Of a DNA stretch of 64,000 nt, positions 45,129-64,000 are shown piece by piece. The translations under genes were made by a program, and so were the position numbers. Source of the DNA: Eubacteriales bacterium. GTDB lineage: Bacteria > Bacillota > Clostridia > Oscillospirales > CAG-272. Position 1 is the stretch's first letter. Each line of letters begins with the position of its first letter. Below the pieces are notes generated by a model. That model saw nothing but the letters and a program-made list of their open reading frames with translations. It was not told the origin of the DNA and searched no databases. The stretch is from NCBI GenBank assembly GCA_045593725.1, contig JAZNXE010000026.1, positions 20,646 through 84,645 of the forward strand, written 5' to 3'.

Positions 45129-45160
45129 ATGCGCAGCTTCGTGCTGCGCATTTTTTATTT
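45129..45160 (+). terminator. Leader (attenuator-type) intrinsic terminator 20 nt upstream of the LRR gene start
   Basis: ATGCGCAGC-ttcgt-GCTGCGCAT followed by TTTTTATTT. The AGGAGGA RBS at 45167-45173 comes next. Confidence 0.7.
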
Positions 45161-45179
45161 ATCATCAGGAGGACAGAAA

Positions 45180-47938: not shown

Positions 47939-49438
47939 TTATCTTATAGTAGCAATAAATCTAAGGAAGGCTTCGTGTCCCTCGGGAGTGCACTTATATA
48001 CTCCCGCATCCTCAAGAACTCTCTCGAAAGTGCGTCCTATTTCCTTCTTGATTATCTGCTCGGTATTCTCTGCGGTAAACTCATAGCTATCCTTAAATCC
48101 GTCAAACCACTCCTTGTGCTTTGCGATATTCTCATCATCGGCGAAATCCTTGCCCTCGGCAATAGCCTTGCACATAAGGGCTATCTCGTCACGGAGTCTT
48201 GCGGGAAGCACAGCCAGCCCCATAACCTCTATAAGACCGATATTCTCCTTCTTTATATTGTGAAGGTCGGCGTGAGGATGGTAAACTCCCAAGGGATGCT
48301 CCTCGGTGGTGATATTGTTACGAAGTACGAGGTCAAGCTCAAGCTTTCCGTCACGTGTACGCGCTATGGGCGTTATAGTATTATGAGGCTCTCCGTCGGT
48401 ATTGGCAAATACAAAGGCATTCTCGTCGGTGTATGCTCTCCAAGCCTTAAGTATCTTATCTGCAAGCTCTACAAGGCTTTCCTTGTTTGCGCTGCGGAGT
48501 CTGATAACCGACATAGGCCAGTTTACAATACCCGCCTCAACGTCCTCAAAGCACTCAAATTTTATCTCTGTATCAATAGGCGCTTTAGCCATAGCAAAGG
48601 TATAGTGTCCGCCCTGAGTATGGTCGTGGGACAAAATAGAGCCGCCTACGATAGGAAGGTCTGCATTGGAGCCGAGGAAATAGTGAGGATACTGCTCCAC
48701 GAAATCAAGCAATCTCTCAAAGGTTCCCCGCTCTATCTTCATAGGGGTATGCTCCTTGGAAAGCACGATACAATGCTCGTTATAGTAAACGTAGGGAGAA
48801 TACTGCATATACCACTGCTTACCAGAAAGAGTGGTAGGAATAAGACGCAGCGTCTGGCGCGCGGGTCTGCCAACGTTACCCTCAAAGCCCTCGTTCTCGG
48901 GACAAAGGAGGCACTTAGGATATCCGCTCTGAGGCAAAAGCTTGGCAGCCGCGATAGCCTTGGGGTCCTTTTCGGGCTTAGAAAGATTTACGGTTATATC
49001 AAGCTCACCGTATTTGCCCTCGTATGTCCACTTCAAATCCTTTGCCACGCGGTATGTACGGATATAGTCGCTGTTACGGCAAAGAGCGTAGAAATAGTCG
49101 GTAGCCTTTACGGGGGACTCGGCGTACAGCTCCTTAAATTTTCTGATTACCTCGCTGGGACGGGGAGTGAGAATACCCATCAGCTTTGTATCGAACAGGT
49201 CGCGGTAAACCACGCTGTTATTTTCAAGCAAGCCGTTCTGGGCGGCATAGTCGCATAGAGATGCCAGTATCTCCTCAAGGGGCGTGTGCTCAACCTCGTT
49301 GGGTTCAACATATTCCCCAACCTTAAGCGCCGACATCAGCGAGTTGGTCATATAAAGTCTGTCCTCTTGGGTTATAAGCTCCTTATCTATGGCATAATCC
49401 ACGAGCTGTTTAATCTTAGCAGAAATATTAACTGACAT
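47939..49438 (-). CDS. galT: UDP-glucose--hexose-1-phosphate uridylyltransferase (type 2 GalT, Firmicutes form)
   Basis: A 499-aa ORF with GGSILSHDHTQGG and the overall family-2 GalT layout. Confidence 0.88.
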   Translation of the reverse strand: MSVNISAKIKQLVDYAIDKELITQEDRLYMTNSLMSALKVGEYVEPNEVEHTPLEEILASLCDYAAQNGLLENNSVVYRDLFDTKLMGILTPRPSEVIRKFKELYAESPVKATDYFYALCRNSDYIRTYRVAKDLKWTYEGKYGELDITVNLSKPEKDPKAIAAAKLLPQSGYPKCLLCPENEGFEGNVGRPARQTLRLIPTTLSGKQWYMQYSPYVYYNEHCIVLSKEHTPMKIERGTFERLLDFVEQYPHYFLGSNADLPIVGGSILSHDHTQGGHYTFAMAKAPIDTEIKFECFEDVEAGIVNWPMSVIRLRSANKESLVELADKILKAWRAYTDENAFVFANTDGEPHNTITPIARTRDGKLELDLVLRNNITTEEHPLGVYHPHADLHNIKKENIGLIEVMGLAVLPARLRDEIALMCKAIAEGKDFADDENIAKHKEWFDGFKDSYEFTAENTEQIIKKEIGRTFERVLEDAGVYKCTPEGHEAFLRFIATIR

Positions 49439-50265: not shown

Positions 50266-51045
50266 ATGAGAAAAGCAATTAAAATATTGATAGCAGACGA
50301 AAACGCATCCGACCGTCAGGCACTGTGTGCGGAGCTTCGCAAGGCGGGATTTACAAATCTTCTTGAAGCAGGAAACGGAGAGGAGGCTCTTATACAAATA
50401 GGCAAAAACCATCCCGACGTAGCCATAATAGACGTGTGGCTGTCAAAGCTGGACGGAATAGGAGTACTCAATAACTGTCAAAATATCAAATTTGCCCCCG
50501 ATAAGCCTCCCGCATTTATAGTAGTATCTATGGTATCCAAGCAAAGCATATTTGTTGAGGCTACAAATTCAGGAGCAGACCTCTGCCTACTTAAGCCTTA
50601 CAACGTAGAAAGCCTTTGTAGGCATATCAATTCCCTTGCCAAGACACGGGACGGAGAAACAGTAGCCGCACCTGAGGACGAAAGCGTTCCCGATATGGAA
50701 TCACAGGTAACAAAGATAATCCACCAGATAGGTGTTCCCGCGCACATAAAGGGATATCAGTATCTACGTACAGCCATTCTCCTTACTATAAAGGACAGCG
50801 ATATTATAAACAGCGTTACCAAAATTCTCTACCCCAGCGTGGCAAAGCAGTATCAGACCACAACCAGCCGAGTTGAGCGCGCCATCCGTCACGCCATCGA
50901 GGTAGCATGGGATAGAGGCGACGTGGATACCCTCAATTCCTATTTTGGTTATACCATTCAAAACAACAGAGGTAAGCCCACAAATAGTGAGTTTATTGCA
51001 ATGATAGCTGATAATTTGAGGCTGAAATATAAGATGTATAAATAA
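50266..51045 (+). CDS. spo0A: Sporulation master regulator Spo0A
   Basis: It has a receiver domain and the signature Spo0A C-terminal domain ([20 protein letters not shown]...[18 protein letters not shown]...[13 protein letters not shown]). Confidence 0.95.
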
Positions 51046-51067
51046 AAGAGGGCTTCTGCCCTCTTTT
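51044..51067. terminator. Bidirectional terminator between convergent spo0A and the carboxypeptidase gene
   Basis: AGAGGGC-ttct-GCCCTCT flanked by AAAA and TTTT. It overlaps both stop codons. Confidence 0.75.
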
Positions 51068-52178
51068 ATTCTGCGTATGTATTATAAATATATTTAACCT
51101 CTTGGGTAGAGATGGACTCTGACAGTCCACTTCCCTTGGGCTTACCGACTATAACGTTTACGTATCCCTTCCCCGTGGTTTTTGACACAGCATAGGAAAC
51201 AAGGCAAACTCCCGCCTCATCGGTATATCCTGTCTTAGCAGCTCTCACAGTAACCGTATTCAACTCTACCTCGCCGTTAAACCGAACAGAGTACCACTCA
51301 CAATGCGCCCAGTAGCTTACAGGCTGTCCGCTGCTGTTCACAGATAGGTCGTTGCTGTTTCCCACGTAGGCAGGTATCTTTCTGGTATCGGTAGAGAGCA
51401 ATATTCTCTTAGCCAACTGGTTCTCAAGCGCGTAAGACATCATTGCCGCCATTTCTCGGCAGGTGGTAACGTGCTCCGTGTGGTGGAGTCCTGTACAGTT
51501 CTTGAAATTAGTTTGATTAAGACCAAGCTCTTCCGCCTTATCGTTCATCATCTCTACGAACCTTGCTTCGCTTCCCGCAATTTCCTTAGCTATCATAAGG
51601 CAGGCAATTGTATCCGATTTGTAGGATATCATATACAGAAGGTCTTCTATTGTAAATCCGTCGCCAAGGGATGACGCCACCAAAAGCCCCGAACCTCCGT
51701 TCTGGTCCTTATAATCGATATCTTCCTGAGTTACCACAAGCTTTTTGTTAAGACTTGTAACGTTCTCACAGGCTACAAGCAGAGTCATTACCTTTGTCAT
51801 TGAGGCGGGGTATATGGTCTGGTCCGCTTCCTTCTCCGCTATGGAGGTATAGCCGCCAAGCTCCACCAGAATGGCATTATTAGACCTGATGCTATCACCT
51901 ATCTGCGCCGCGTTCCCCGAGCTGGTGCTTAAATAGCTGCTTCTACTCGGAATAGTAGGATATAACGCCAACTTGTTGGTATTAGTCACAGGGTCTTTAC
52001 CCGTACCTTGGGGTATATCCTCCATATCGTCATCCTCAATAGCAAGAATAACGAATAGAGAAGCGGTGAGGGCTACCAGCAGTATTATAGTTGTAAAAAG
52101 TATTATAAAATACCCTTTTCCTGGCCATCTCTGCCTTTTTTGTTTTTTTAGTTCCATATATTGTTTAGGCGTAAACAT
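51066..52178 (-). CDS. D-alanyl-D-alanine carboxypeptidase (S11 family, DacB-like)
   Basis: It has an N-terminal TM anchor and the SxxK active site (PASMTKVMT). It is 370 aa long. Confidence 0.8.
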   Translation of the reverse strand: MFTPKQYMELKKQKRQRWPGKGYFIILFTTIILLVALTASLFVILAIEDDDMEDIPQGTGKDPVTNTNKLALYPTIPSRSSYLSTSSGNAAQIGDSIRSNNAILVELGGYTSIAEKEADQTIYPASMTKVMTLLVACENVTSLNKKLVVTQEDIDYKDQNGGSGLLVASSLGDGFTIEDLLYMISYKSDTIACLMIAKEIAGSEARFVEMMNDKAEELGLNQTNFKNCTGLHHTEHVTTCREMAAMMSYALENQLAKRILLSTDTRKIPAYVGNSNDLSVNSSGQPVSYWAHCEWYSVRFNGEVELNTVTVRAAKTGYTDEAGVCLVSYAVSKTTGKGYVNVIVGKPKGSGLSESISTQEVKYIYNTYAE

Positions 52179-52249
52179 CCATGCTCTCCTTAGTGAGAAA
52201 TCTTATTTATATTTTATCATATATACAAGCTTTTTTCAAGTAGATAATA

Positions 52250-52286
52250 ATAAAAAATTTGAGGTTGCCGCACAAGCAGCAACCTC
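52250..52286 (-). terminator. Intrinsic terminator closing the 7-gene operon
   Basis: On the minus strand: GAGGTTGC-tgcttgtgcg-GCAACCTC followed by AAATTTTTT. Confidence 0.65.
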
Positions 52287-52298
52287 TTTTTAAGTAAA

Positions 52299-53438
52299 TT
52301 AATCCGCGGTAAGACCCGATCTTTCGATACCCTGTACAAGGTATTTCTGACAGAACAGATACATAACCACCAAGGGAGCAATAACCATAAGTCCCGCGGT
52401 GTTTCTCACAACACCATTATATGCTTCCTGTCCCTTAAAGTTCTTATCTATCAAGGTCTTAGGTACATCCTTCTCTATGAAGTTTATCAGCAGGTAAGGA
52501 GCCTCAAACTCATCAAAGAAAAACATCGTTCTTCCTGTATAGAAGTCATCGGTCCAGCACCAAGAAAAGGCAAACAGGAATACCGTTATCATCATAGGTA
52601 CGGATATAGGAAGAATTATGGTAAAGAATGTACGGAATACACCCGAACCATCTATATAAGCCGACTCCTCAAGCTCATCGGGAACGCCCATAAAGAACTG
52701 ACGAAGTAGGAATATATACAGACCGTTCTTAAAGGCAAGACCTGTCAACGAAAGCAAGATAAAAGGCCACATGGTATTAATGGTATTTATACCGTTGGAG
52801 GTAAACATCTTCCAGCTATCAGGAAATACGTTTATACTTGACAGTATTTCATTGTTAAATTCAAAGCCGAGTATATTTATTCCGCCGCCCTCTAAGAAGC
52901 TGAATATCCCGAAGATATCAAAGCCATTAAATCTTGAAAACATCGCCAGCTGTATTGTTCGGTGAGGTATTACCATAGTTAATATAACCAGTCCAAACAA
53001 CAGCTTGTTGCCCTTAAACCTGAATTTTGCAAATCCGTAAGCTACCAAGCTACATATAAACATCTGTATTAACGCCGTAGTCAATGAAAGACCTAAGGTA
53101 TTCATAAATGCTTCTATGTATTCCTGCTTAAGCCACAGCTCTCTATATATTTCAACAGTGAAGTTCTTCGGAATAAGCTTTACCGAGGAGTCTGCAAGGT
53201 CATACTTTTCCATGAATGAAGCTGCTATCTTTGAGATAAAGGGGAAAAGCACGATATACGCAACACCAACCAGCAGCACGTAACGAACTATCCACCAAAC
53301 GAACTTTTTAAGGAAAAACATCGACAAGAATTTAGCCTTCAGACGTTCTTTAAGAGGTGTTCTTTCAAAATCAACCTTTATTTTTCTCTTACTTTCTTTG
53401 CGAATCTTAGGTTGTTCCATAGTCTTTTCAGAATTCAT
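52299..53438 (-). CDS. ABC transporter permease (MalG/UgpE-like, unusually long at 379 aa), second pair
   Basis: It has the EAA-loop motif ESAYIDGSGVFRTFFTIILPISVP. The RBS is AAGGAGGTG. Confidence 0.8.
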   Translation of the reverse strand: MNSEKTMEQPKIRKESKRKIKVDFERTPLKERLKAKFLSMFFLKKFVWWIVRYVLLVGVAYIVLFPFISKIAASFMEKYDLADSSVKLIPKNFTVEIYRELWLKQEYIEAFMNTLGLSLTTALIQMFICSLVAYGFAKFRFKGNKLLFGLVILTMVIPHRTIQLAMFSRFNGFDIFGIFSFLEGGGINILGFEFNNEILSSINVFPDSWKMFTSNGINTINTMWPFILLSLTGLAFKNGLYIFLLRQFFMGVPDELEESAYIDGSGVFRTFFTIILPISVPMMITVFLFAFSWCWTDDFYTGRTMFFFDEFEAPYLLINFIEKDVPKTLIDKNFKGQEAYNGVVRNTAGLMVIAPLVVMYLFCQKYLVQGIERSGLTAD

Positions 53439-54466: not shown

Positions 54467-57400
54467 TTAGTCTAGGATAACATATCCGTATGCGCCTACG
54501 GTATAATATACGTCATTAACAGATACCTTAACAGCGTAATTGTTGAAATTAAGGATAAATGCTGTGCCGTTGGAATAACGCTCATATACTATGGAATTAG
54601 CGGGTACTGCGTACTTATTAAAGCCTTCCTTGGATGCTTCTGTACCGTCATCCTCGTTATTTTCTCCACCACCTATTTCTTCAGCGTATTTATTTTCTAT
54701 CTCAACTACGGTAGCATCTTCCTGCTCATCCGCCATATTGTCAGCAAAGTCCGTAAGCTTATCATACTCTGACTTGGTGCTATCAAGTATATTCTTGAGT
54801 CCTGCTACTATGTCAGGCGTGTAAGCATCGTTCTCTGCGTCGTAAAGCTTATCAAAGTTATCATTAGCAAACTCATATTTTTCGATATAGCCGGCTGCGA
54901 TTTCCTTTGCAAGCGCTACGGTATCCTTATACTCATAGTACTTAGTAAGCATATCCTCAAGTGCCTCGCCATACTTCACCTTTGCATCATCACGTGCCGT
55001 TTGTGCCGCCTGCAGCTGCTCCGGGGTTTTATCGGTAGTAGCTTCAAGGTCCTTAAGAGCCTTATCCGCTTCATCGAGAGCTGTCTCAGCCGCATTCAAA
55101 GCCGCATAAGAGTCGGTAAGCTCGGTGAGCTTCTCGGTCTTGGTGTCATATACCTTCTGCGCAGTCTGGAACTCGGGAGCTACGTACTTTTCCCAATCAA
55201 GCAAATTCTTTCTTATTGCCTGAAGCGTTGCCCTAAGCTCTTCCTTATCCTCAGCGGCATCCTGAATATCCTTGTAGATGGAGTTGAAGAGTTCATTGAA
55301 GGAATCTCCCTCTATTTCATCCGCGTTAGGTATTCTAAGACCGTCTATAAACTGGTGAACGTCAATAGTGCTGGTCTGCACGTCCTTAAGCGCTTTGTTT
55401 ATCTCGGAATAATTAGCTATAAGGTCATCAAGCCAGATATCATAGCGTACAGAGTAATAAACGCTGGTATCCTCGTTTTCCTTGAGCAACGAAGTGTTGC
55501 GGTAAGAAAGAATGAACTTAAGCGCAGATCCATTTTCTATGGCTCTGAGAAGCGCGTAGTCTGTATTTCCTTCCATATTAATGGGAGTTGCCGCTGTCTG
55601 TACGTATCCGTGAAGTACAATTCCAAGGAAAGGAACAGTAGCCGCAGAGCTCGCATGACGGCTGGAGTCGGTAGCTATATCAGTGATATAGTCAACGTAT
55701 TTCCATGAGTAAGCGTTTCCTCCCGAGGTCATTACCTTATTGTAATGCTCGTCAAAATACTTGAAGGAATCTATAACAAATCCCTTGGAGTCCTCGCGAT
55801 GGTAAGGCTCATCCTCATCAAAGTCGGAATTAAGATAAGATGCCATTGTGGAAACTGAAATTCCTATGGGATCGTACTCGCTATAATTCTTAGTCAGCTT
55901 TTCATAGAAGCGGCTAAAGTAAGCAGGGGATATAGCAAGCTCAAAATAGTTGATGTATGCCTGTCTTGAAGCACTGTATTCTCTCTTACTGGTATAGCGG
56001 TCGTCTATGGTCCTCGCCGCGTGGGATATAAGAGAAAGTCCGTCGAACATCTTGTTATCAGAGGCGAAAGCAAAATCGAAGTCAGGGTAGAGTCCAAATC
56101 CATTATCCTTAGCGTACTTCAACAGCTCCTCGAACTTCATCTCCTTTTCCACAGAGTTATCCCAATTTAGGTGATAAGGCACCTGGTCAGTGGTAAGTCC
56201 GCCCTTATTATACCCTGTAAGAATAAAGTTGATGTTCTTTATGTCAGAGCCAGAAAGCTCGTCGTACATCCTCTTAATATCATCAAAGCTTGTGAGAGCC
56301 TTCATGGTATTATATGGAATAGACATAAACTTTTCTGTTGTTTCTATTGCTCCAAAGGTTTCGATGTAAAGAGGTATGTCTGCCTTTACATCGTCATCGG
56401 TAAGCTTTGAGAGAGTTCCGTTATTTATTAAATACTCTCTGTATGCCTTTGCCATTCCAACGTAACTGGTGTCATAATAGCCATCACCCGTCTTTACGTC
56501 AGGGTCGGTAAGCATAGTATAGCGTATTCTGAAGTCTCCTGTGTATTTTCTGGGAGACGCTACAACAAATGCTCCGCTTGTAGCTACTGAGATAGCATTA
56601 GAAAGCTTGTATTCGTCGTATGGTCTAGGAGAAATAGACATACGAACGGTATTATAGTACGTAGAATGGTGCGCCGAGAGCGTCATCAGCGACTCACCCT
56701 CTTCTATAACAGCCAGATATCCTCTCGACCGCTCACTTCCATCCGCAAGTGTCTCATCCTCTACCAAGCCAAACACGGGATACCGAACCACTTGGTTGTG
56801 GGGCGCCTGTGTGTTTATCTTGGAGTAAGCGAAGTCGTGTCCATATACGGAACCGTGGAACAAAGTAGGAGAAGACAGCTTTGCCAGCTCCTCAAAATCG
56901 AACAGAGCGCCTGAACCGTCGGGGAAGAATGTGTATCCCGAGTTAGGATTTGAGCCGGATCCCATATAAGGAAGAATCTCTATATCATCCAAACGGTAAA
57001 TAGATTCATCAAATCTTATACCGTTAGCGGGTACACGGACAGTAAGCCCATCCTTATCAAGGGTATATTCAAGAGATATCTTGAACAGGGGTTCGTTCAT
57101 CTCTCTGGGGCTAACACCAAGCTCAAGATGCTCTGAGTCAATATCCTCAAAGGTATATTCGGGGAAATAGGTCTTTATTATATTTTCAATAGTCGCATAC
57201 TCTCTCTTTGTAGCGCAAGTACACTCGTAGAATACAATGTACTCACCGTTTTCATCCGTCATGTCAGCAAAAGGATATTGTTCAAGATAGGCTTTCTTTT
57301 TCTCTTCCTTCTTTGCTTCATCCTTATACGGTGCCAGCTCCTCGGTAAGACCTCGCTTTTCTATAAATGTAAAGAACTGCCCCTTTTCAAAACTTAACAT

Positions 57401-58066
57401 GGACTCGTTATTCTGGACATCACCGAATTCGCGGTCATAGGTTTCAGCTGTAATAAACTTTGGCACCAGATATCTTGAGTCGGTACGGCCAATCTGATAT
57501 TCAACGCGAATACCGTTCTTTATGTACTTTACGTCAATCTGGCTAGTGGAAAGCTTATCCGTGCTCTGACTATTAAGTTCAGTGTCGCCGCCTCTTACCG
57601 AGTAAGTATAGCTGTTATAGGTCTTAGGGTTGTCACCATCACTTGTATCAACGAAGGATATTATAATCTGCGAAAGCATCTCCGCTTTTGTCTTGTCGTC
57701 TTTAACCTTTGTTCCCAAATCGTATGGATTGGAGAAAAGAACATCCCCGGTTACAACGTTTTCTACCGCAACCTCTCCGCTATAAGCGTCAACGTACAGA
57801 CGATAGCCCTCGTGTTCAAGGCGAAGGTCCATAGTTTCAAGCTTCTGCTGCTTTGTATCTACCGTTACTTCAACGGTACCGTCTTCGCCCTTCTTCTCAT
57901 ATTTACCGTTTAGGTAGTCCATCGTAGGAGCATATTTGCTTGTATTGTACTCATACACGGGTGCGTTAGACTCAGTTGAAGTCTCCTGCGCGCTTACCAC
58001 CATAGACAGAGCACTTATAAGCATCAGAAGCGCTAAGAAAGTCGATATTATTCTTTTAATTAACAT
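54467..58066 (-). CDS. Large secreted protein of unknown function (1199 aa) with a long C-terminal coiled-coil insertion. It may be DUF5696-like, but that rests on recollection only
   Basis: It has a signal peptide (MLIKRIISTFLALLMLISALSMVVSAQE) and a GGAGGAGG RBS. A large globular region is followed by a stretch of about 250 aa rich in Ala/Glu/Lys/Asp. A beta-rich tail follows (AFILNFNNYAVKVSVNDVYYTVGAYGYVILD). Confidence 0.75.
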   Translation of the reverse strand: MLIKRIISTFLALLMLISALSMVVSAQETSTESNAPVYEYNTSKYAPTMDYLNGKYEKKGEDGTVEVTVDTKQQKLETMDLRLEHEGYRLYVDAYSGEVAVENVVTGDVLFSNPYDLGTKVKDDKTKAEMLSQIIISFVDTSDGDNPKTYNSYTYSVRGGDTELNSQSTDKLSTSQIDVKYIKNGIRVEYQIGRTDSRYLVPKFITAETYDREFGDVQNNESMLSFEKGQFFTFIEKRGLTEELAPYKDEAKKEEKKKAYLEQYPFADMTDENGEYIVFYECTCATKREYATIENIIKTYFPEYTFEDIDSEHLELGVSPREMNEPLFKISLEYTLDKDGLTVRVPANGIRFDESIYRLDDIEILPYMGSGSNPNSGYTFFPDGSGALFDFEELAKLSSPTLFHGSVYGHDFAYSKINTQAPHNQVVRYPVFGLVEDETLADGSERSRGYLAVIEEGESLMTLSAHHSTYYNTVRMSISPRPYDEYKLSNAISVATSGAFVVASPRKYTGDFRIRYTMLTDPDVKTGDGYYDTSYVGMAKAYREYLINNGTLSKLTDDDVKADIPLYIETFGAIETTEKFMSIPYNTMKALTSFDDIKRMYDELSGSDIKNINFILTGYNKGGLTTDQVPYHLNWDNSVEKEMKFEELLKYAKDNGFGLYPDFDFAFASDNKMFDGLSLISHAARTIDDRYTSKREYSASRQAYINYFELAISPAYFSRFYEKLTKNYSEYDPIGISVSTMASYLNSDFDEDEPYHREDSKGFVIDSFKYFDEHYNKVMTSGGNAYSWKYVDYITDIATDSSRHASSAATVPFLGIVLHGYVQTAATPINMEGNTDYALLRAIENGSALKFILSYRNTSLLKENEDTSVYYSVRYDIWLDDLIANYSEINKALKDVQTSTIDVHQFIDGLRIPNADEIEGDSFNELFNSIYKDIQDAAEDKEELRATLQAIRKNLLDWEKYVAPEFQTAQKVYDTKTEKLTELTDSYAALNAAETALDEADKALKDLEATTDKTPEQLQAAQTARDDAKVKYGEALEDMLTKYYEYKDTVALAKEIAAGYIEKYEFANDNFDKLYDAENDAYTPDIVAGLKNILDSTKSEYDKLTDFADNMADEQEDATVVEIENKYAEEIGGGENNEDDGTEASKEGFNKYAVPANSIVYERYSNGTAFILNFNNYAVKVSVNDVYYTVGAYGYVILD

Positions 58067-58085: not shown

Positions 58086-60320
58086 TTACATTCTGTATCG
58101 AAGCTCTGTAGCTATATTGGTAACAAAGCTTACAAGCTTTCCAAGAAGTGTCGTAAACAGAATTGCAATAAACATAATACAAATCATTCCGACAATCGTG
58201 GAAATGGTTATTACAACGTTCTTTCCGATACTGTAATCGTGAGTTATCATCATACCGAAGAAGAGCAATATACCAAGCCATATAAATCCGAGCGCTGTTA
58301 TCAGAGAAACCGTCTTAAGCTCCGCCTGAACAACAAAGTTGGACGCCAGTGTTGCGGGAACAATCGTAAGTATCAACGGCATCAAGGAATAAGTACAAGC
58401 GATATAAATATCCTTGAAGTTTCCTTCACCGTCAAATAGTGTAGTAAGGCACCAGTTAGCTATCATAAAGAGAGCCAAGGGAACGCACAAGCTGGTAAGT
58501 GCCTCAAAGAAGGACAGGTAATTGCCCTGAGGATTTGAAACGTAACCCGCTCCTACAGATTGATAGTAGAATACAAGCACCGCAACTGCGAGTATAGTTG
58601 AACCCGCCCTTACCGAGCCTCTCTTTTCGTGCTTCAAATCCCAGAATCCGTCAAAGGGATGCATAATGAGGTGGAATACAAAGAGCAGTTCCTGTACGTA
58701 GGTTCTCTTTCCAACGGCAGTCGCTGTTTCCTTGTTCACCTTGTTAGCATATTTCATAAACTTAGAAAGCGCGAAGCAAAGAACAAACACTATAATAGGA
58801 ATTGTCCACAGATACTTGGATATCCACTGCTGTCTTAATTCGGTATAGGTAGTTGAGTAGTTAGCAACATCGTATGCGTTCTTATACTGGTCTATTGCCT
58901 TAGTGTACTCGTGACTTCTATAATACGCATTACCCATTCCAATATAAGCTGCATCGAAGTTAGAGTTTCTCTTAATAACCTCTTGCCAGTCATTTATTGC
59001 ATCGTCATATCTACGGTTATTCTGATTTTCAATAGCTCCCATAAGCACGTTTCCGTAGGGAGTTCTTTCATAAACCGTAAACGAACCCGCATCAGAGTGT
59101 CCGTCAAGGAGAAGCATATCGGTTCCCTGATATACTATCGCTTCTGCCTTCTCGATATTTCCAAGAAGCGCTCCTTTATCACCGAAGGCAAAGAGCAGAT
59201 TTCCGTCAAAATCGTATGTAAATACCTTGCTTCTCTCCTGGTCAATTATTGACCAAGTATTCTCAGGACCAACCGCAACGTCAACTATTCTGGAAGGTCC
59301 TACGTACGTAGCGTCATCAGAGTTAATAGCGTTGAAGAAATCAACTTCTCCTGAAGGTGGATAAAATCCGTTTCTTCTCATAAGCTCTGATCCCGCTGCG
59401 TTAAGCATTCTTACAGGAGCAAAGTCTCCGCTCTTGCTCTTATTCCTGATAGCATTAGCTACGTCATCTGTATTGGAAAGGGTAATAGTAGCGTACACAA
59501 AGTCCCCTGCCAGTGCAATGTTATTAAACGGAGGTGCAATTTCCTTGGAATTACTAATCTTCTGCTCTTCTGTCTGGAATCTTCTCCAGATTTTGTCCCA
59601 AAGGGACAGCGAGCTCTTCTGAGCACCGATATATCCGGTAAACTCTCCCTCCTCGGTTATTACCTCGATACCACCCGTAGAGTTACTATTTACGACGTAA
59701 AGTCTGTCGTATCTGTCAACGGCTACTGCGATTGGCATATAGTCGGATGATGCATCAAGAATCTCAGATTTAGGCTTTCCTATCTCCTTAATGAACTTTC
59801 CATCCAGATCGAACACAAGAATTCTTGCGTTACCGGTATCGCATACGTAAATCTTACCGGGAACACCAACACCGTTTACTGTCTTAGAAGCAGAAACAAA
59901 TATTCCCTCAGGAGAATTAAACGTGTCACTGTTTCCATTTGCGTTATCAAAGGTATGTATAACATTCTTTACCGCATAATAAGGGTCGAGTATTATAACT
60001 CTGCCGTTGGCCTTATCAACAACATATACGTTATTGTTTTCATCCACCTCAAGGTCAACGAGGCCAAGCTTGGCTTTCGCAATGTTCTCAAGCTCTTCTT
60101 CAGTCTTGTTAGGATAAAATTGTGAAAGCTTCTCCGTATCCTTAAGGCCCATATACTCTGTGTCTATCTCGGCCTCAGGCGTATAAGCGTGAGGCGAATG
60201 GAGTGCTGTTCCCGATATTGAATATGTGTAAGTGTAATACGATGTTGCTGCGCTTATAGGAAGAGACAAAAGCATTACAACAACGAACACTATACATAAA
60301 ATAGATGTTGTCTTTTTCAT
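58086..60320 (-). CDS. Signal peptide + NHL-repeat beta-propeller + TPR + C-terminal Yip1-type polytopic membrane domain (744 aa)
   Basis: The NHL-like blades include YVVDKANGRVIILD, IYVCDTGNARILVFD and LYVVNSNSTGGIEVI. The TPR-like segment is YDDAINDWQEVIKRNSNFDAAYIGMGNAYYRSHEYTKAIDQYKNAY. The last 230 aa or so hold about 6 TM helices. Confidence 0.75.
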   Translation of the reverse strand: MKKTTSILCIVFVVVMLLSLPISAATSYYTYTYSISGTALHSPHAYTPEAEIDTEYMGLKDTEKLSQFYPNKTEEELENIAKAKLGLVDLEVDENNNVYVVDKANGRVIILDPYYAVKNVIHTFDNANGNSDTFNSPEGIFVSASKTVNGVGVPGKIYVCDTGNARILVFDLDGKFIKEIGKPKSEILDASSDYMPIAVAVDRYDRLYVVNSNSTGGIEVITEEGEFTGYIGAQKSSLSLWDKIWRRFQTEEQKISNSKEIAPPFNNIALAGDFVYATITLSNTDDVANAIRNKSKSGDFAPVRMLNAAGSELMRRNGFYPPSGEVDFFNAINSDDATYVGPSRIVDVAVGPENTWSIIDQERSKVFTYDFDGNLLFAFGDKGALLGNIEKAEAIVYQGTDMLLLDGHSDAGSFTVYERTPYGNVLMGAIENQNNRRYDDAINDWQEVIKRNSNFDAAYIGMGNAYYRSHEYTKAIDQYKNAYDVANYSTTYTELRQQWISKYLWTIPIIVFVLCFALSKFMKYANKVNKETATAVGKRTYVQELLFVFHLIMHPFDGFWDLKHEKRGSVRAGSTILAVAVLVFYYQSVGAGYVSNPQGNYLSFFEALTSLCVPLALFMIANWCLTTLFDGEGNFKDIYIACTYSLMPLILTIVPATLASNFVVQAELKTVSLITALGFIWLGILLFFGMMITHDYSIGKNVVITISTIVGMICIMFIAILFTTLLGKLVSFVTNIATELRYRM

Positions 60321-60336: not shown

Positions 60337-61209
60337 TTAATCCTTCATACCACTGGAGCCCATAGTCTCAATGATATTTGACTGCGATACAACGAATACC
60401 AAAATAGGTACTAGCATCATTACCACGGTTGCCGCCGCACTGGCACCGGCACGTCTTATACCGCCCGCGGTTATCTGACCTATTGCATAGTTGAGCGATT
60501 TGAGCTGCTCGGAGTGTATGTATATACTCGAACCCTGATTCCAGAGTCCCTGGAATGAGTACACTATAAGTGTAAGCCAACCGGGCTTTACCATAGGCAT
60601 AGCTATAACCCAGAAGGTCCTAAACTCGCCCGCGCCGTCAAGTCTGGCACTCTCAAGCACTGAATCATTAACGTTGGATTCCATAAACTGCTTCATCAGG
60701 TAAAGTCCCAACGTAGAGCCCCACGCGGGAACTATAATAGCCCAATAGGTATCAACCATTCCCAAAGCACTCATAAGAATGAAGCTACAAAGTGCCGTTA
60801 CCGTCTGGTGGAACATAAGAGAGGTCTGTACCGTCTTAAACATAAGCTTTCCGCCGGGGAACTTTATCTTTGCAAGAGCGTAAGCCGCAAGCGACGCGAA
60901 GAGAAGGTGTCCCAGAGTACCTGCAAATGATGTAAACACCGTGTTGAATATGTAACGTGAGAAAGGCACCATATTTCCACTCATCAGGGTAAACAGGTCC
61001 TTAAAGTTCTTACCCGTGGGAGCTACTACGTAGAATCTTGGGGGGAACATCCAAAGCTCGTCAAGAGGTTTAAACGCCTGTATTATACAATAATACATAG
61101 GAAGCACCATGAATACTCCGAGCAAAGCAAGGATAACCGTGATACCCGCGTCTCCGCTTCTGGATCGAGCAAATACAACTTTATGTTTTCTTGTTCTTAA
61201 CTTTGCCAT
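60337..61209 (-). CDS. Carbohydrate-type ABC transporter permease (MalG/UgpE-like, 290 aa), first pair
   Basis: It has the EAA-loop motif ESARLDGAGEFRTFWVIAMPMVKP. It lies 1 nt after the upstream stop. Confidence 0.85.
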   Translation of the reverse strand: MAKLRTRKHKVVFARSRSGDAGITVILALLGVFMVLPMYYCIIQAFKPLDELWMFPPRFYVVAPTGKNFKDLFTLMSGNMVPFSRYIFNTVFTSFAGTLGHLLFASLAAYALAKIKFPGGKLMFKTVQTSLMFHQTVTALCSFILMSALGMVDTYWAIIVPAWGSTLGLYLMKQFMESNVNDSVLESARLDGAGEFRTFWVIAMPMVKPGWLTLIVYSFQGLWNQGSSIYIHSEQLKSLNYAIGQITAGGIRRAGASAAATVVMMLVPILVFVVSQSNIIETMGSSGMKD

Positions 61210-61210
61210 A

Positions 61211-62158
61211 TCACGATCCTACCTTTGAAATTATCTTCTTAACAAGCATATTTGAGCCTATCATTATCACGAACAGAACTACGGCTATGGCAGAGGCGTA
61301 ACCGGTTTCAAATCTGATTCCTCCGTAGTCATCGAGGTGGTGAACTATGGTATGCGCCGCATAGTCAACAGACGGGAATCCGCAAAGAGCTGTAACGACT
61401 CCGCCAAATCCGAACGCGCCGGTAATAGCCATAATAGCACCAAACATAAGCTGATTCTTCATATTTGGAAGCGTTATGTAATAAAGCTCCTGCCATCTGT
61501 TCTTAATACCGTCAACCGCACCTGCCTCAAACTGCGCCTTGTCTATTCCCTGAAGACCCGCGATAAACGCAAGGAAGGATGTTCCCAGCGAGGTCCAGAG
61601 GGCAACCACAATACACAAGGGCATTACGTAATCCGCATCCTGGAAGAATACAATCTCTTCATTTATTATTCCCAGCTCCAAAAGCCATGCGTTTACCCAA
61701 CCGTAGCGGTCACCCGAGAAAAGTGTACCCCAGATAAGATATACCTGACCCGATATAGAGGGAGCATAGAATACGAGGGTTACGATAGCTCTTATTCTCG
61801 GTGAAAGCTCGTTGATAAACCAAGCAACCAAGAAGGACATTATGTACGAAACAGGTCCAACGATGGCGGCAAATATCAAAGTGTTCTGACAAGCTATGAT
61901 GAATATATCATCGTCAAGGAAAAGTCTTATATAGTTATCGAACCATATAAAATCAGGAACCTGCAACAGGTTAAAGTTAGTAAAGCTTATAACCAGTGAA
62001 AGTACGACAGGAAGGACGGTAAAGCAGGTAAAGATGAGCATATACGGTGCTACCATCAGGTACGCCACCTTATTTCTCTTCATTTCGTGCCATGTCCATT
62101 GCGCCATCGTCATATCCTTGCGCACCACAGCTTTCTTTTTCGCTGTATTTTGTGACAT
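61211..62158 (-). CDS. Sugar-type ABC transporter permease (MalF/UgpA-like, 315 aa), first pair
   Basis: It has the EAA-loop motif EAGAVDGIKNRWQELYYITLPNMKN. The RBS is AAGGAG. Confidence 0.85.
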   Translation of the reverse strand: MSQNTAKKKAVVRKDMTMAQWTWHEMKRNKVAYLMVAPYMLIFTCFTVLPVVLSLVISFTNFNLLQVPDFIWFDNYIRLFLDDDIFIIACQNTLIFAAIVGPVSYIMSFLVAWFINELSPRIRAIVTLVFYAPSISGQVYLIWGTLFSGDRYGWVNAWLLELGIINEEIVFFQDADYVMPLCIVVALWTSLGTSFLAFIAGLQGIDKAQFEAGAVDGIKNRWQELYYITLPNMKNQLMFGAIMAITGAFGFGGVVTALCGFPSVDYAAHTIVHHLDDYGGIRFETGYASAIAVVLFVIMIGSNMLVKKIISKVGS

Positions 62159-62186: not shown

Positions 62187-64000
62187 TTATTTGTAAGCTT
62201 CATAGGATCTAAGGCACTTAGCCGCTTGCTCCAGATAGTCAGCCGCCTTGGCAAACAACGCCGAGTTAAGTGACTTAAGCTCCTCGGCATAGGCTTCAAG
62301 CGCTCCGTAATCCTGTGTCTTATAATCTCTCAATTCTTTCATTAAAGAATTATATACATTGTCATAAGCCGAGGTATAGCGGCTGTCGCTCTTAGCAATC
62401 TCCAGCTCCTCCTCTGCCTGTTGCATACGCTTTATTGCGAGAGTGGACTGTTTTTTATCCTTATCAAGGGTTTCAAGATCGAACTCGTCACGCTTTCTCG
62501 TGATCTCGTCGTTAATGTAATCTATATATCCCAGAAGGCTCTCTACGGGGTTAAGATTATCGTTGTAAGCATCAAGGAACGCGAATCCCGTATAACGCGA
62601 TATAATATACGCGCCGGGATAGTTAGGAACTGCGGCAAGATTATCAAATTGAAGCTTTATCTGCTCGTATTCCTCACGGGTCCAAGGCAAGCTCTCGAGC
62701 GCCGTAGAGTTAGCGGTAGGATGCTTTGCTGAAGGACCGAGAATAGCAACCATTTCGTTGGAGTAGTCGGTCTGGCAATCCGCGCCCACATACCATCTCA
62801 TAAATTTCCATGCATCCTGCTTCCGCTCTGTACCGGATATCATTACCACCGCGCTGACTCCCGAAACGGTCTCAAAATTTATATCACCGTTTTCATCCTC
62901 CATACCCGGCAGCGGATAGAAGGACCAAAGGCCCTCAATCTCAGTAGCGAAAACCTTAAGGTGATTATACGTTCCTGTATAATCCGCAAATCCTATGGGC
63001 ATCTCACCCGTTCTGAAACGGTTAGCGAAGTTATACTGATATGGGAAGGAGTACATAGTGAACATCTCGCACATACTCTCAAAAGCGGTAAGCGCCAGAT
63101 TCGAATCGAGGTTGATTCTCATACCTCCGTCAGCAAAAAGCTCACCGCCCATCTGGTACAGGAAGATATTACTATCGTTGCTCATTGCGATTTCCATGTT
63201 ATTAGCCTGGAGAACAGGAACAGCTTCCTTAACGTCATTCCAAGTCTTGGGAACCTCCAAGTCAAGCTCTGCAAGGATATCCTCGCGAACAAACATCATT
63301 GAGAACGTTTGCGTTTCAGGGAGTCCGTAACAGTGTAGCTGACCCGTGCCGCACTGCTGATGCTCCTCAGCATCTCCGTTAGTACCAGCACATTCTATTC
63401 TAAGCACCATCATGGCGCTCTGATTAAAGTTCGAGCAGGCTTCGTCATAGCCTTCCATGGTCTCTATGGACTCAAGGGCGCCTCTGATAGCGTAGTTAAT
63501 AGTATCACCCGCGCCAAGTCCCAGATAAACGTCAGGACCCTGTCCCGATAATATAGAAGGAAGCAGAGTTCCCGCCGCAACCAGCTTAAGGTTGACTGTA
63601 ATGTTACTGCTGGGAGTAAAGTTATTGTTTATAAGGTTTCTGATAACCTGTGATTGGTCACGTCCGTAAGCCAACCAAACCTCAACGCTCTCATCCGAAT
63701 CCTCCTCGGTAAGAGCGCCCATTCTGTCGTACTTACGGAAGAAGCTCTGGAAGAAGCCCGATATTTCGTGCCACAGCGCTTCAAAGAATCCCGCTCTCGC
63801 TCTGGGATCCTCCTCATCAACCGCCTGTATGGAAATAAAGTCAAGAAGGAGAGGCTGTGTCTTCGCGTTGCCTATCCATGTACCGAGAGAACCAATATAT
63901 GTTTTAAGCTGCTCCATATTTTTAGCAACTTCTTCTTCATCCCTTGCCATCTCCTCAAGAAGCTCAGCAACGTTTATCAGCGTAGCTGTCATAGAGCTCT
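62187..64000 (-). CDS. Large extracellular solute-binding-like protein, 5' end beyond the right edge of the window (more than 604 codons visible)
   Basis: A family-1 SBP-like core (VEVWLAYGRDQSQV...LPSILSGQGPDVYLGLG...WSFYPLPG...) is followed by a helical tail of about 90 aa. The frame is still open at 64000, so the ATG at 63992 is not the true start. Confidence 0.75.
   Translation of the reverse strand, partial: SSMTATLINVAELLEEMARDEEEVAKNMEQLKTYIGSLGTWIGNAKTQPLLLDFISIQAVDEEDPRARAGFFEALWHEISGFFQSFFRKYDRMGALTEEDSDESVEVWLAYGRDQSQVIRNLINNNFTPSSNITVNLKLVAAGTLLPSILSGQGPDVYLGLGAGDTINYAIRGALESIETMEGYDEACSNFNQSAMMVLRIECAGTNGDAEEHQQCGTGQLHCYGLPETQTFSMMFVREDILAELDLEVPKTWNDVKEAVPVLQANNMEIAMSNDSNIFLYQMGGELFADGGMRINLDSNLALTAFESMCEMFTMYSFPYQYNFANRFRTGEMPIGFADYTGTYNHLKVFATEIEGLWSFYPLPGMEDENGDINFETVSGVSAVVMISGTERKQDAWKFMRWYVGADCQTDYSNEMVAILGPSAKHPTANSTALESLPWTREEYEQIKLQFDNLAAVPNYPGAYIISRYTGFAFLDAYNDNLNPVESLLGYIDYINDEITRKRDEFDLETLDKDKKQSTLAIKRMQQAEEELEIAKSDSRYTSAYDNVYNSLMKELRDYKTQDYGALEAYAEELKSLNSALFAKAADYLEQAAKCLRSYEAYK

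What the first reader, a model, noticed from the sequence alone, without database searches (positions are those of the whole stretch)
58086..60320. Unusual domain fusion: an extracytoplasmic NHL beta-propeller and TPR joined to a Yip1-type polytopic membrane domain
Bacterial Yip1-domain proteins are normally small (about 200 aa) membrane proteins of unknown function. Here the Yip1-like C-terminal block of about 230 aa (about six hydrophobic helices from LWTIPIIVFVLCFAL onward) sits behind a signal peptide and about 430 aa of NHL-like blades. The recurring motif is hydrophobic-V-x-D-x-x-N-x-R-I/V, seen for example in IYVCDTGNARILVFD. A TPR-like pair follows the blades. The architecture suggests an extracellular ligand-binding or scaffold module coupled to a membrane module inside an ABC-transporter operon.
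Basis: partly seen in the sequence, partly recalled or inferred. Interest (0 to 1): 0.55.

Follow-up and report, generated by a model that had tools for sequence, protein, structure and literature searches.

The report
NHL-TPR-Yip1 subunit of sugar importer
The fused protein is real, but it belongs to a large, unstudied family that always sits inside one conserved sugar-uptake operon next to a glycosidase-like protein, so it is most likely a membrane-anchored helper subunit of that uptake machine.

Summary
Window 58086-60320 (-) encodes a 744-aa protein: signal peptide, six-bladed NHL beta-propeller, two TPR hairpins, one extra TM helix and a full five-TM Yip1 domain.

The word "unusual" does not hold. 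There are 3,208 significant homologues, at least 1,210 clusters at 50% identity with E<=1e-30, and relatives in at least 589 species genomes. The same architecture persists down to about 30% identity and occurs in cultured Paenibacillus, Cohnella, Halanaerobiales and Natronospora. No function is assigned anywhere, and no paper in the searchable library mentions the partner family DUF5696.

The gene always lies in one cassette: giant solute-binding protein, MalF/MalG-like permease pair, NHL-TPR-Yip1, DUF5696, second MalF/MalG-like pair. All 71 loci with enough flanking DNA show this order. No ATPase gene is in the cassette. The DUF5696 model has a clan GH-D alpha-glycosidase fold, a signal peptide and no visible membrane anchor.

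Best reading (inferred): the Yip1 domain docks to the ABC permeases, as YknW does in YknWXYZ, and the NHL/TPR ectodomain holds the glycosidase-like protein, the binding protein or the glycan at the transporter. It is a new variant of a known kind, of moderate interest.

The parts
58086..60320 (-). NHL-TPR-Yip1 gene (744 aa plus stop codon)
   Evidence: ORF list; Pfam hits; full-length homologues
60246..60320 (-). Signal peptide, residues 1-25 (MKK..., hydrophobic core 7-25, ISA|AT)
   Evidence: Hydropathy; modelled as helix 2-23 with low-confidence residues 21-26
60063..60245 (-). N-terminal strands and helices, residues 26-86. The conserved Y-x-x-Y-T-Y...SP-x-AY motif probably closes the propeller. 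Helical segment 60-81 is specific to the gut clade.
   Evidence: Invariant columns Y28 Y31 T32 Y33 G37 S42 P43 A45 Y46; strands 30-33, 39-42, 46-52; clade-specific segment
59064..60062 (-). Six-bladed NHL beta-propeller, residues 87-419
   Evidence: Pfam NHL and DUF5128 above cut-off; PDB sequence hits; model strands; Foldseek TM 0.74-0.77 to NHL domains; blade sequences
58812..59063 (-). Two TPR hairpins plus a capping helix that runs into TM1, residues 420-503
   Evidence: TPR models just under cut-off; designed TPR proteins E=1e-16; helices 421-503; W445 N452 A458 A475 at least 95% conserved family-wide
58755..58811 (-). Extra transmembrane helix TM1, residues 504-522
   Evidence: Hydropathy 2.11; helix 506-534 in the model
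58596..58754 (-). Basic, predicted cytoplasmic loop, residues 523-575, carrying the conserved HPFDGFWDLKHEKRGS motif (start of the Yip1 domain)
   Evidence: 9 K+R in 53 residues; invariant H550-S569 block; P555 G558 F559 K563 G568 at least 95% conserved across 104 sequences
58164..58673 (-). Yip1 domain (Pfam residues 550-719) with five TM helices
   Evidence: PF04893 52 bits, profile positions 2-171 of 173; hydropathy segments 576-720; helices 570-743
62187..64000 (-). C-terminal 601 or more residues of the giant solute-binding protein, cut by the window edge (orthologues are about 1,131 aa)
   Evidence: Frame stays open to the window end; SBP_bac_8 and SBP_bac_1; full-length orthologues
61211..62158 (-). 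Permease P1 (MalF/UgpA type)
   Evidence: Pfam BPD_transp_1; NCBIfam UgpA-like; EAA loop read from the translation
60337..61209 (-). Permease P2 (MalG/UgpE type)
   Evidence: EAA loop
54467..58066 (-). DUF5696 protein, 1,199 aa: signal peptide, GH-D-like glycosidase fold, clade-specific coiled coil at residues 915-1131
   Evidence: PF18952 463 bits; model pLDDT 80.8; Foldseek GH36, GH31 and GH97 matches; invariant acidic residues
53454..54449 (-). Permease P3 (MalF/UgpA type)
52299..53438 (-). Permease P4 (MalG/UgpE type)
52261..52286 (-). Terminator-like hairpin (11-bp stem, 7 G-C pairs, T-rich tail) that closes the operon

Best explanation
The protein is a membrane-anchored accessory subunit of a multi-gene CUT1-type (MalFG-like) ABC glycan-uptake machine.

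Shown: it has a Sec signal peptide. The NHL propeller and the TPR pedestal are predicted to face outside. An extra TM helix returns the chain to the cytoplasm so that the five-TM Yip1 domain takes its usual orientation. The gene is always immediately followed by a DUF5696 gene and a MalF/MalG-type permease pair, and it is accompanied by a giant solute-binding protein with its own permease pair. DUF5696 carries a signal peptide, a clan GH-D alpha-glycosidase-like fold and acidic residues that stay invariant across the family. It has no recognisable membrane or wall anchor.

Inferred: the Yip1 domain docks laterally onto the permease TM domains, as the Yip1 protein YknW does in the YknWXYZ ABC transporter. 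The NHL/TPR ectodomain is a non-catalytic binding platform. It keeps the secreted DUF5696 enzyme (and possibly the giant binding protein or the glycan itself) at the mouth of the translocon, so that cleavage products are imported rather than lost. ATP hydrolysis would come from a shared MsmX/MsmK-type ATPase encoded elsewhere, as is common for Firmicute CUT1 systems (established knowledge).
For: Domains and topology.

Operon structure: gaps of 1-28 nt with Shine-Dalgarno sequences and a terminator after the last permease.

Cassette conservation: 71 of 85 loci show SBP-P1-P2-YIP-DUF5696-P3-P4. The other 14 are cut by contig ends, and there are no exceptions. Flanking genes differ between genomes.

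The block YIP-DUF5696-P3-P4 stays intact in Paenibacillus, Halanaerobiaceae and Natronospora, even where the SBP half-cassette is placed on the other side.

All four permeases are MalF/G or UgpA/E-like with EAA loops.

DUF5696 fold: GH36 E=1.7e-10, GH31 MYORG E=2e-07, GH97 E=2e-06. D383 D411 E455 E569 D662 D748 E844 are invariant across distant orthologues, and all orthologues have N-terminal signal-like sequences.

The propeller residues conserved family-wide are the structural D/R/G/P of NHL blades, with no catalytic-looking cluster.

Precedents: YknW is a Yip1 protein that modulates assembly of an ABC transporter (PMC4887032), and Yip1 genes recur next to ABC genes in bacteriocin clusters (PMC10707071).

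Carbohydrate context in cultured species: GH38, GH1, PL14 and sugar-type regulators. The SBP domain is closest to Lin1841 (PDB 5ysb); from memory, that is an oligosaccharide-binding protein.
Against: No physical interaction was tested. The docking and tethering steps rest on gene order and analogy only.

The known Yip1-ABC precedents are exporters of the MacB type, not type I importers.

The DUF5696-glycosidase link comes from a predicted fold, with modest TM-scores (0.36-0.50) and high rmsd. A sequence profile found no glycosidase.

The substrate is unknown.

NHL-type propellers can be enzymes. The Paenibacillus orthologue just reaches the SGL lactonase cut-off (26.9 bits against 26.3).
Confidence: 0.5

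Rival explanations
1. Substrate receptor. The NHL/TPR ectodomain, alone or with DUF5696, acts as the substrate-delivering receptor for the second permease pair (P3/P4). In effect it replaces a solute-binding protein that the gut clade has lost.
For: Paenibacillus, Natronospora and Halanaerobiaceae loci carry a second SBP of about 440-470 aa. None of the roughly 80 gut-clade loci does, which leaves one SBP for two permease pairs. The YIP-DUF5696-P3-P4 block moves as a unit.
Against: The protein is equally conserved in lineages that keep both SBPs, so it cannot simply be an SBP substitute. No type I ABC importer is known to use a membrane-fused propeller as its receptor (own knowledge). The giant SBP could serve both translocons.
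Confidence: 0.17
2. Enzyme. The propeller is a catalytic domain of the lactonase or lyase type found among NHL/SGL six-bladed propellers. It modifies the glycan at the membrane surface before uptake.
For: The Paenibacillus orthologue scores 26.9 bits on SGL against a cut-off of 26.3. One source names a homologue 'sugar lactone lactonase YvrE'. Virginiamycin B lyase is among the Foldseek matches at E=3e-08.
Against: The best structural matches are non-enzymatic NHL domains. Positions at least 95% conserved across 104 sequences are the structural Asp/Arg/Gly/Pro of the repeat. There is no conserved His/Glu/Asn metal-site set. The window protein itself has no SGL hit.
Confidence: 0.1
3. Assembly factor only. 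The protein acts as a chaperone or regulator for the two-translocon complex, with the ectodomain sensing the state of the cell envelope. It does not contact the substrate or DUF5696.
For: YknW is described as modulating complex assembly rather than transporting. The most conserved Yip1 motifs lie on the predicted cytoplasmic face.
Against: A 478-aa extracellular domain conserved down to 30% identity, with the DUF5696 gene always immediately next to it, argues for an extracellular partner. There is no cytoplasmic output domain; the only loop is 53 aa.
Confidence: 0.1
4. Artefact. The fusion is an assembly or gene-calling error, or a chance similarity.
For: None found.
Against: Thousands of full-length homologues from independent assemblies and from cultured genomes share the architecture.
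Confidence: 0.01

Closest known systems
YknW of the Bacillus YknWXYZ transporter (and BawG-type Yip1 proteins of bacteriocin clusters)
   Same: A bacterial five-TM Yip1-family membrane protein encoded in an ABC-transporter operon. It is described as an accessory subunit that shapes complex assembly rather than as the translocator (PMC4887032; PMC10707071).
   Different: YknW and BawG are about 220 aa with no ectodomain, and they accompany MacB/HlyD-type exporters. This protein has a signal peptide, a 478-aa NHL/TPR ectodomain and an extra TM helix, and it accompanies MalFG-type importers and a glycosidase-like protein.
CUT1 sugar ABC importers, such as MalEFGK2 and the streptococcal RafEFG/Aga/MsmK raffinose system (own knowledge)
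   Same: The cassette has MalF/MalG-type permeases with EAA loops, a family-1 solute-binding protein, a GH36-like partner protein and an ATPase supplied from elsewhere.
   Different: There are two permease pairs in one operon. The SBP is giant (about 1,130 aa) with a roughly 600-aa N-terminal extension. The GH-D-like protein is secreted rather than cytoplasmic. A Yip1-fusion membrane subunit is present, which has no counterpart in the classical systems.
Extracellular NHL propeller of the Mycobacterium tuberculosis kinase PknD, and eukaryotic TRIM-NHL domains (own knowledge)
   Same: A six-bladed NHL beta-propeller used as a binding module. In PknD it is likewise extracytoplasmic and tethered to the membrane.
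   Different: Here the membrane part is a polytopic Yip1 domain with no signalling output, not a single helix linked to a kinase. Identity to TRIM-NHL domains is only 13-17%.
Eukaryotic YIPF (Yip1/Yif1) Golgi proteins
   Same: The same Pfam domain, with five TM helices and the N-terminal side of the domain facing the cytoplasm (review PMC6682643 listed).
   Different: The eukaryotic proteins act in vesicle traffic and have a cytosolic N-terminal domain. No such pathway exists in bacteria, so this is shared ancestry rather than shared function.

Membership tests
Yip1 domain family (Pfam PF04893) | Match to the family HMM above the curated cut-off over most of the profile | tested here: met
   52 bits against 28.6; residues 550-719 cover profile positions 2-171 of 173. 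The Paenibacillus orthologue scores 58.6 bits.
Yip1 domain family (Pfam PF04893) | Five transmembrane helices, with the start of the domain on the cytoplasmic side | tested here: met
   Five hydrophobic segments between residues 576 and 720, preceded by a basic loop. The model has helices 570-590, 604-628, 635-660, 665-694 and 698-743. The orientation is predicted, not measured.
NHL-repeat six-bladed beta-propeller (PF01436) | HMM match above the cut-off | tested here: met
   27.6 bits against 20, and DUF5128 24.5 against 22.9. PDB NHL domains match at E=3.9e-13.
NHL-repeat six-bladed beta-propeller (PF01436) | Six four-stranded blades forming a closed propeller | tested here: met
   The model shows six strand groups between residues 87 and 419. 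Foldseek TM-score is 0.74-0.77 to TRIM71, Thin and NHL-2. This is a predicted structure only.
TPR repeat | Two or more 34-residue helix-turn-helix repeats recognised by TPR models | tested here: inconclusive
   Every Pfam TPR model is just under its cut-off (TPR_2 26.8 against 27). Designed TPR proteins match at E=1e-16, the model shows two hairpins, and many homologues pass the TPR models. The repeat is very probably real.
YknW-like accessory subunit of an ABC transporter | Encoded in the same operon as ABC transporter components | tested here: met
   Invariant cassette in 71 of 71 complete loci and in three distant lineages.
YknW-like accessory subunit of an ABC transporter | Physical association with the transporter and an effect on its assembly or activity | not testable with these tools
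   This needs complex prediction, co-purification or genetics.
SMP-30/gluconolactonase/LRE-like (SGL) enzymes | HMM match above the cut-off and conserved metal-binding catalytic residues | tested here: not met
   The window protein has no SGL hit at E<=1. The Paenibacillus orthologue is borderline at 26.9 bits against 26.3, over only 78 residues. No catalytic-type residue set is conserved family-wide.
Clan GH-D glycoside hydrolases (GH27/31/36/97), for the DUF5696 partner | N-terminal beta-sandwich plus (beta/alpha)8 barrel fold | tested here: met
   Foldseek matches to GH36 at E=1.7e-10, GH31 at E=2e-07 and GH97 at E=2e-06, each with probability 1.00, on a model with pLDDT 80.8. TM-scores are only 0.36-0.50.
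Clan GH-D glycoside hydrolases (GH27/31/36/97), for the DUF5696 partner | Catalytic Asp nucleophile and Asp acid/base on barrel strands 4 and 6 | tested here: inconclusive
   D662 (in YPDFDF) and D748 (in SDFDED) are invariant across distant orthologues. Their structural equivalence to the GH36 catalytic residues could not be checked. There is no sequence-level link to any GH family.

The most novel reading that the evidence does not exclude
The cassette could be a Gram-positive counterpart of the Bacteroidetes 'utilisome'. In this reading a single surface complex is built on the NHL-TPR-Yip1 subunit. That subunit couples a secreted alpha-glycosidase of a new family (DUF5696) and a giant solute-binding protein directly to two tandem ABC translocons. 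Cleavage and import would then be physically channelled, and in the gut clade one translocon would be fed without a classical binding protein. This would also give bacterial Yip1 domains a general role as docking modules for ABC transporters, importers as well as exporters.
Probability: 0.15. Interest if true: 0.8.

Novelty: new variant of a known kind. Interest (0 to 1): 0.5.

Why it matters
Bacterial Yip1-domain proteins have almost no assigned function, and the only studied case is an accessory subunit of an exporter. This family attaches a large extracellular binding domain to Yip1 and is strictly linked to sugar importers and to an uncharacterised glycosidase-like family (DUF5696).

The cassette is present in at least 589 species genomes (the best 80 are uncultured gut Clostridia MAGs) and in culturable Paenibacillus. 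That makes three questions testable. What do bacterial Yip1 domains do? What is DUF5696? How do Gram-positive gut bacteria keep a secreted glycosidase next to its transporter? If the scaffold model is right, it defines a widespread and so far undescribed glycan-harvesting machine of the animal gut microbiota.

Tried and rejected
The source organism is therefore known only as a sporulating Clostridia-type genome (Spo0A).
- My first strict regular expression for the blade motif found nothing. A looser one found two strict copies.
- Foldseek's top 50 matches for the whole model were all propeller or TPR hits. None covered the Yip1 part. The PDB sequence search also found no Yip1 relative.
- Neither a single DUF5696 sequence nor its profile reached any glycosidase in the PDB. 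They returned only coiled-coil noise from the clade-specific insert.
- Literature searches for DUF5696, PF18952 and 'YIP1 family protein' with Paenibacillus gave no relevant paper.
- Pfam scans of the giant SBP's N-terminal extension gave only sub-threshold hints (CBM_35 E=0.01, Golvesin_C). I do not claim a CBM.
- I tested whether the giant SBP arose by fusion with the small SBP. There is no similarity between them, so I rejected this.
- I searched the whole 64-kb window for an ABC ATPase signature (LSGGQ) and found none.
- I considered a sensor or signalling role and rejected it, because there is no cytoplasmic output domain.
- I considered a gene-fusion artefact and rejected it on the homologue evidence.
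Full report
**1. What is there**

Window 58086-60320 (minus strand) is a 744-aa ORF. It has a strong Shine-Dalgarno sequence and lies 16 nt after the upstream gene and 19 nt before the next one.

Pfam places a full-length Yip1 domain at residues 550-719: 52 bits against a cut-off of 28.6, covering profile positions 2-171 of 173. NHL repeats score 27.6 bits against 20. A six-bladed-propeller family, DUF5128, scores 24.5 against 22.9. Several TPR models fall a fraction of a bit under their cut-offs.

Independent checks agree:
- phmmer against PDB sequences finds the NHL domains of Thin (E=3.9e-13) and TRIM71, and designed TPR proteins (E=1e-16).
- An AlphaFold2 model built from 72 homologues has pLDDT 81.2 and pTM 0.68.
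- Foldseek matches that model to TRIM71, Thin, Brat and NHL-2 propellers at E down to 7e-13, with TM-score 0.74-0.77 normalised to the target.

Hydropathy gives a classical signal peptide (residues 7-25, ISA|AT) and an acidic ectodomain of 478 residues. Then come TM1 (504-522), a basic 53-residue loop and five more TM segments. In the model, two TPR hairpins (421-481) and a capping helix (485-503) run almost straight into TM1. The TPR therefore looks like a short pedestal that carries the propeller just above the membrane (inference).

**2. The fusion is not unusual**

- A word-indexed search finds 3,208 proteins with E<=1e-5. The best 120 are all 686-828 aa and nearly all cover the whole query, with the same Pfam set.
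- An exhaustive HMMER scan of 1.84 billion cluster representatives finds 10,513 clusters at E<=1e-3 and 1,210 at E<=1e-30. Nearly all of the best 150 are 690-800 aa and align end to end, down to about 30% identity.
The best 80 are uncultured Clostridia, Eubacteriales, Oscillospiraceae or Ca. Flemingibacterium MAGs from ruminant, horse, rabbit, chicken and human guts.
- A profile of distant members retrieves the same architecture from cultured Paenibacillus (dokdonensis, chibensis, azoreducens, solani, alkaliterrae), Cohnella, Halanaerobiales and Natronospora cellulosivora.

The names attached to these proteins are 'YIP1 family protein', 'DUF1282 family protein', 'TPR repeat protein', 'sugar lactone lactonase YvrE' or 'hypothetical protein'. 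No NCBIfam model covers the protein. No paper in the searchable library mentions the partner family. The architecture is therefore common and old, but functionally unassigned.

**3. Context**

In the window the gene lies fourth in a run of minus-strand genes separated by 1-28 nt, each with a Shine-Dalgarno sequence:

| Order | Gene | Notes |
|---|---|---|
| 1 | Solute-binding protein | Cut by the window edge; about 1,131 aa in relatives |
| 2 | Permease P1 | MalF/UgpA-like |
| 3 | Permease P2 | MalG/UgpE-like |
| 4 | NHL-TPR-Yip1 | The finding |
| 5 | DUF5696 | 1,199 aa; PF18952, 463 bits |
| 6 | Permease P3 | MalF/UgpA-like |
| 7 | Permease P4 | MalG/UgpE-like |

An 11-bp-stem terminator at 52286-52261 follows P4. 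All four permeases have EAA coupling loops (for P2-P4; P1 read from the translation). The whole 64-kb window contains no LSGGQ ABC signature, so the ATPase is encoded elsewhere. This is usual for Firmicute CUT1 systems that share MsmX/MsmK (own knowledge).

Across the 85 loci held at that point, 71 show exactly this seven-gene order. The other 14 are truncated by contig ends, and there is no exception. Flanking genes differ from genome to genome, so the cassette is the conserved unit.

In Paenibacillus dokdonensis the order is the same, with an extra SBP of about 470 aa in front. A LacI/GntR-type regulator, a GH38 mannosidase and a kinase/AraC pair lie alongside. In Halanaerobiaceae and Natronospora the two halves are swapped: YIP-DUF5696-P3-P4 comes first, then the small SBP, the giant SBP and P1. 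GH1 or PL14 genes are next door. The block NHL-Yip1 / DUF5696 / P3 / P4 is thus never broken.

The small SBP is missing from all gut-clade loci. It is unrelated to the N-terminal extension of the giant SBP. The giant SBP itself is orthologous over about 1,000 residues between classes.

**4. The partner protein**

DUF5696 has a signal peptide in every orthologue inspected, and no TM or wall anchor is visible. Its model (pLDDT 80.8, pTM 0.71) matches GH36 alpha-galactosidases (E=1.7e-10), GH31 MYORG (E=2e-07) and GH97 (E=2e-06). These are the clan GH-D architecture of beta-sandwich plus TIM barrel. TM-scores are modest (0.36-0.50), and no sequence-level link exists.

D383, D411, E455, E569, D662 (in YPDFDF), D748 (in SDFDED) and E844 are invariant from gut Clostridia to Paenibacillus. 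This fits a live active site, but it does not prove one.

A 217-residue coiled coil (residues 915-1131) is present only in the gut clade. In the same clade the NHL-Yip1 protein carries small extra segments at residues 60-81, 146-154 and 288-300.

The SBP domain of the giant binding protein is closest to Lin1841 (PDB 5ysb, E=1.5e-13); from memory, that is an oligosaccharide-binding protein.

**5. How it most likely works**

Shown: the domains, the predicted topology, the operon, the invariant gene pairing, the CUT1 nature of both permease pairs, and the glycosidase-like fold and secretion signal of DUF5696.

Inferred: the Yip1 domain docks onto the permease TM domains. The one studied bacterial Yip1 protein, YknW, forms an interface with the YknXYZ ABC transporter and modulates its assembly (PMC4887032). 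Yip1 genes also recur beside ABC genes in bacteriocin clusters (PMC10707071). The NHL/TPR ectodomain would then act as a non-catalytic platform. It would retain the otherwise unanchored DUF5696 enzyme, and perhaps the giant SBP or the glycan, at the translocon.

The family-wide conserved propeller positions are the structural Asp/Arg/Gly/Pro of NHL blades, with no catalytic-type cluster. This favours binding over catalysis. The most conserved Yip1 motifs are HPFDGFWDLKxEKRGS, NWxxTxLxDGxG and THDY. They lie on the predicted cytoplasmic face and could contact coupling helices or the ATPase (speculation).

I give this scaffold model 0.5. Rivals:
- Receptor replacing the lost small SBP in the gut clade: 0.17.
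- Propeller as a lactonase or lyase-type enzyme: 0.10.
- Assembly factor or regulator without an extracellular partner: 0.10.
- Artefact: 0.01.

**6. Comparison with what is known**

The protein is a member of the Yip1 and NHL families by their defining HMM and fold criteria. It works most like YknW. It differs in having a large ectodomain and an extra TM helix, and in serving type I importers rather than MacB-type exporters.

The cassette resembles classical CUT1 systems such as MalEFGK2 or RafEFG/Aga/MsmK. It differs in four ways: it has two translocons, a giant SBP, a secreted GH-D-like protein and the Yip1 subunit.

**7. Verdict**

The finding is real but mislabelled as unusual. It is one representative of a widespread, uncharacterised family that marks a conserved seven- to eight-gene glycan-import cassette not found in the searchable literature. 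I rate it a new variant of a known kind, with interest 0.5.

Noticed in passing
window 54467-58066 (-); coiled coil about 54674-55324: The DUF5696 protein has a predicted clan GH-D (GH36/GH31/GH97-like) fold with invariant acidic residues, so it may be an unrecognised glycoside hydrolase family. The gut clade alone carries a 217-residue coiled-coil insert, which is longer still in P0217 (1,475 aa).
   Followed up: partly
window 62187-64000 (-); full-length orthologue at L001:4718-8113: The solute-binding protein is giant (about 1,131 aa). A roughly 600-aa N-terminal extension of unknown fold is conserved from gut Clostridia to Paenibacillus at 32% identity over about 1,000 residues. CBM hints are only sub-threshold. 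The SBP domain is closest to Lin1841 (PDB 5ysb).
   Followed up: partly
L086:3667-5079, L088:17101-18414, L087:17027-18343: Paenibacillus, Natronospora and Halanaerobiaceae have an additional SBP of about 440-470 aa in the cassette, which all gut-clade loci lack. The two half-cassettes are cyclically permuted between lineages. In L087 this SBP gene was not called as one gene, so it may be disrupted there.
   Followed up: partly
whole window 1-64000: No canonical ABC ATPase signature (LSGGQ) occurs in any frame of the 64-kb window. The two permease pairs must use an ATPase encoded elsewhere.
   Followed up: yes
window 52261-52286 (-) and 52211-52239 (-): A strong terminator-like hairpin lies directly after the last permease gene. 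It is followed by a promoter-like site (10 of 12 matches, with a TG extension) in front of the D-Ala-D-Ala carboxypeptidase gene (51066-52178).
   Followed up: yes
window 47939-49438 (-), 50266-51045 (+): A galactose-1-phosphate uridylyltransferase gene lies about 3 kb beyond the cassette, which is mildly suggestive given the alpha-galactosidase-like fold of DUF5696. It is separated from the cassette by Spo0A and DUF1934 genes, and it is not part of the conserved unit in other genomes.
   Followed up: no
window 45129-47249 (+): A 706-aa BspA-type leucine-rich-repeat protein (LRR_5, 518 bits, six copies), probably a surface protein.
   Followed up: no
proteins P0246, P0252, P0295, P0314: Family variants. 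Some members (883-998 aa) carry an extra insert of 150-250 aa between the N-terminal strands and the propeller. P0314 (576 aa) joins a lipoprotein-type N-terminus and a coiled-coil region to the same TPR-Yip1 module (52% identity over residues 425-744). This suggests that TPR-Yip1 is the constant core and the ectodomain can be exchanged.
   Followed up: no
window 58089-58160 (-), residues 721-744: The C-terminal tail after the last TM helix keeps F732, E739 and R743 in at least 95% of 104 sequences down to 29% identity. With six TM helices this tail is predicted to lie outside, next to the TPR pedestal. Its role is unexplained.
   Followed up: no
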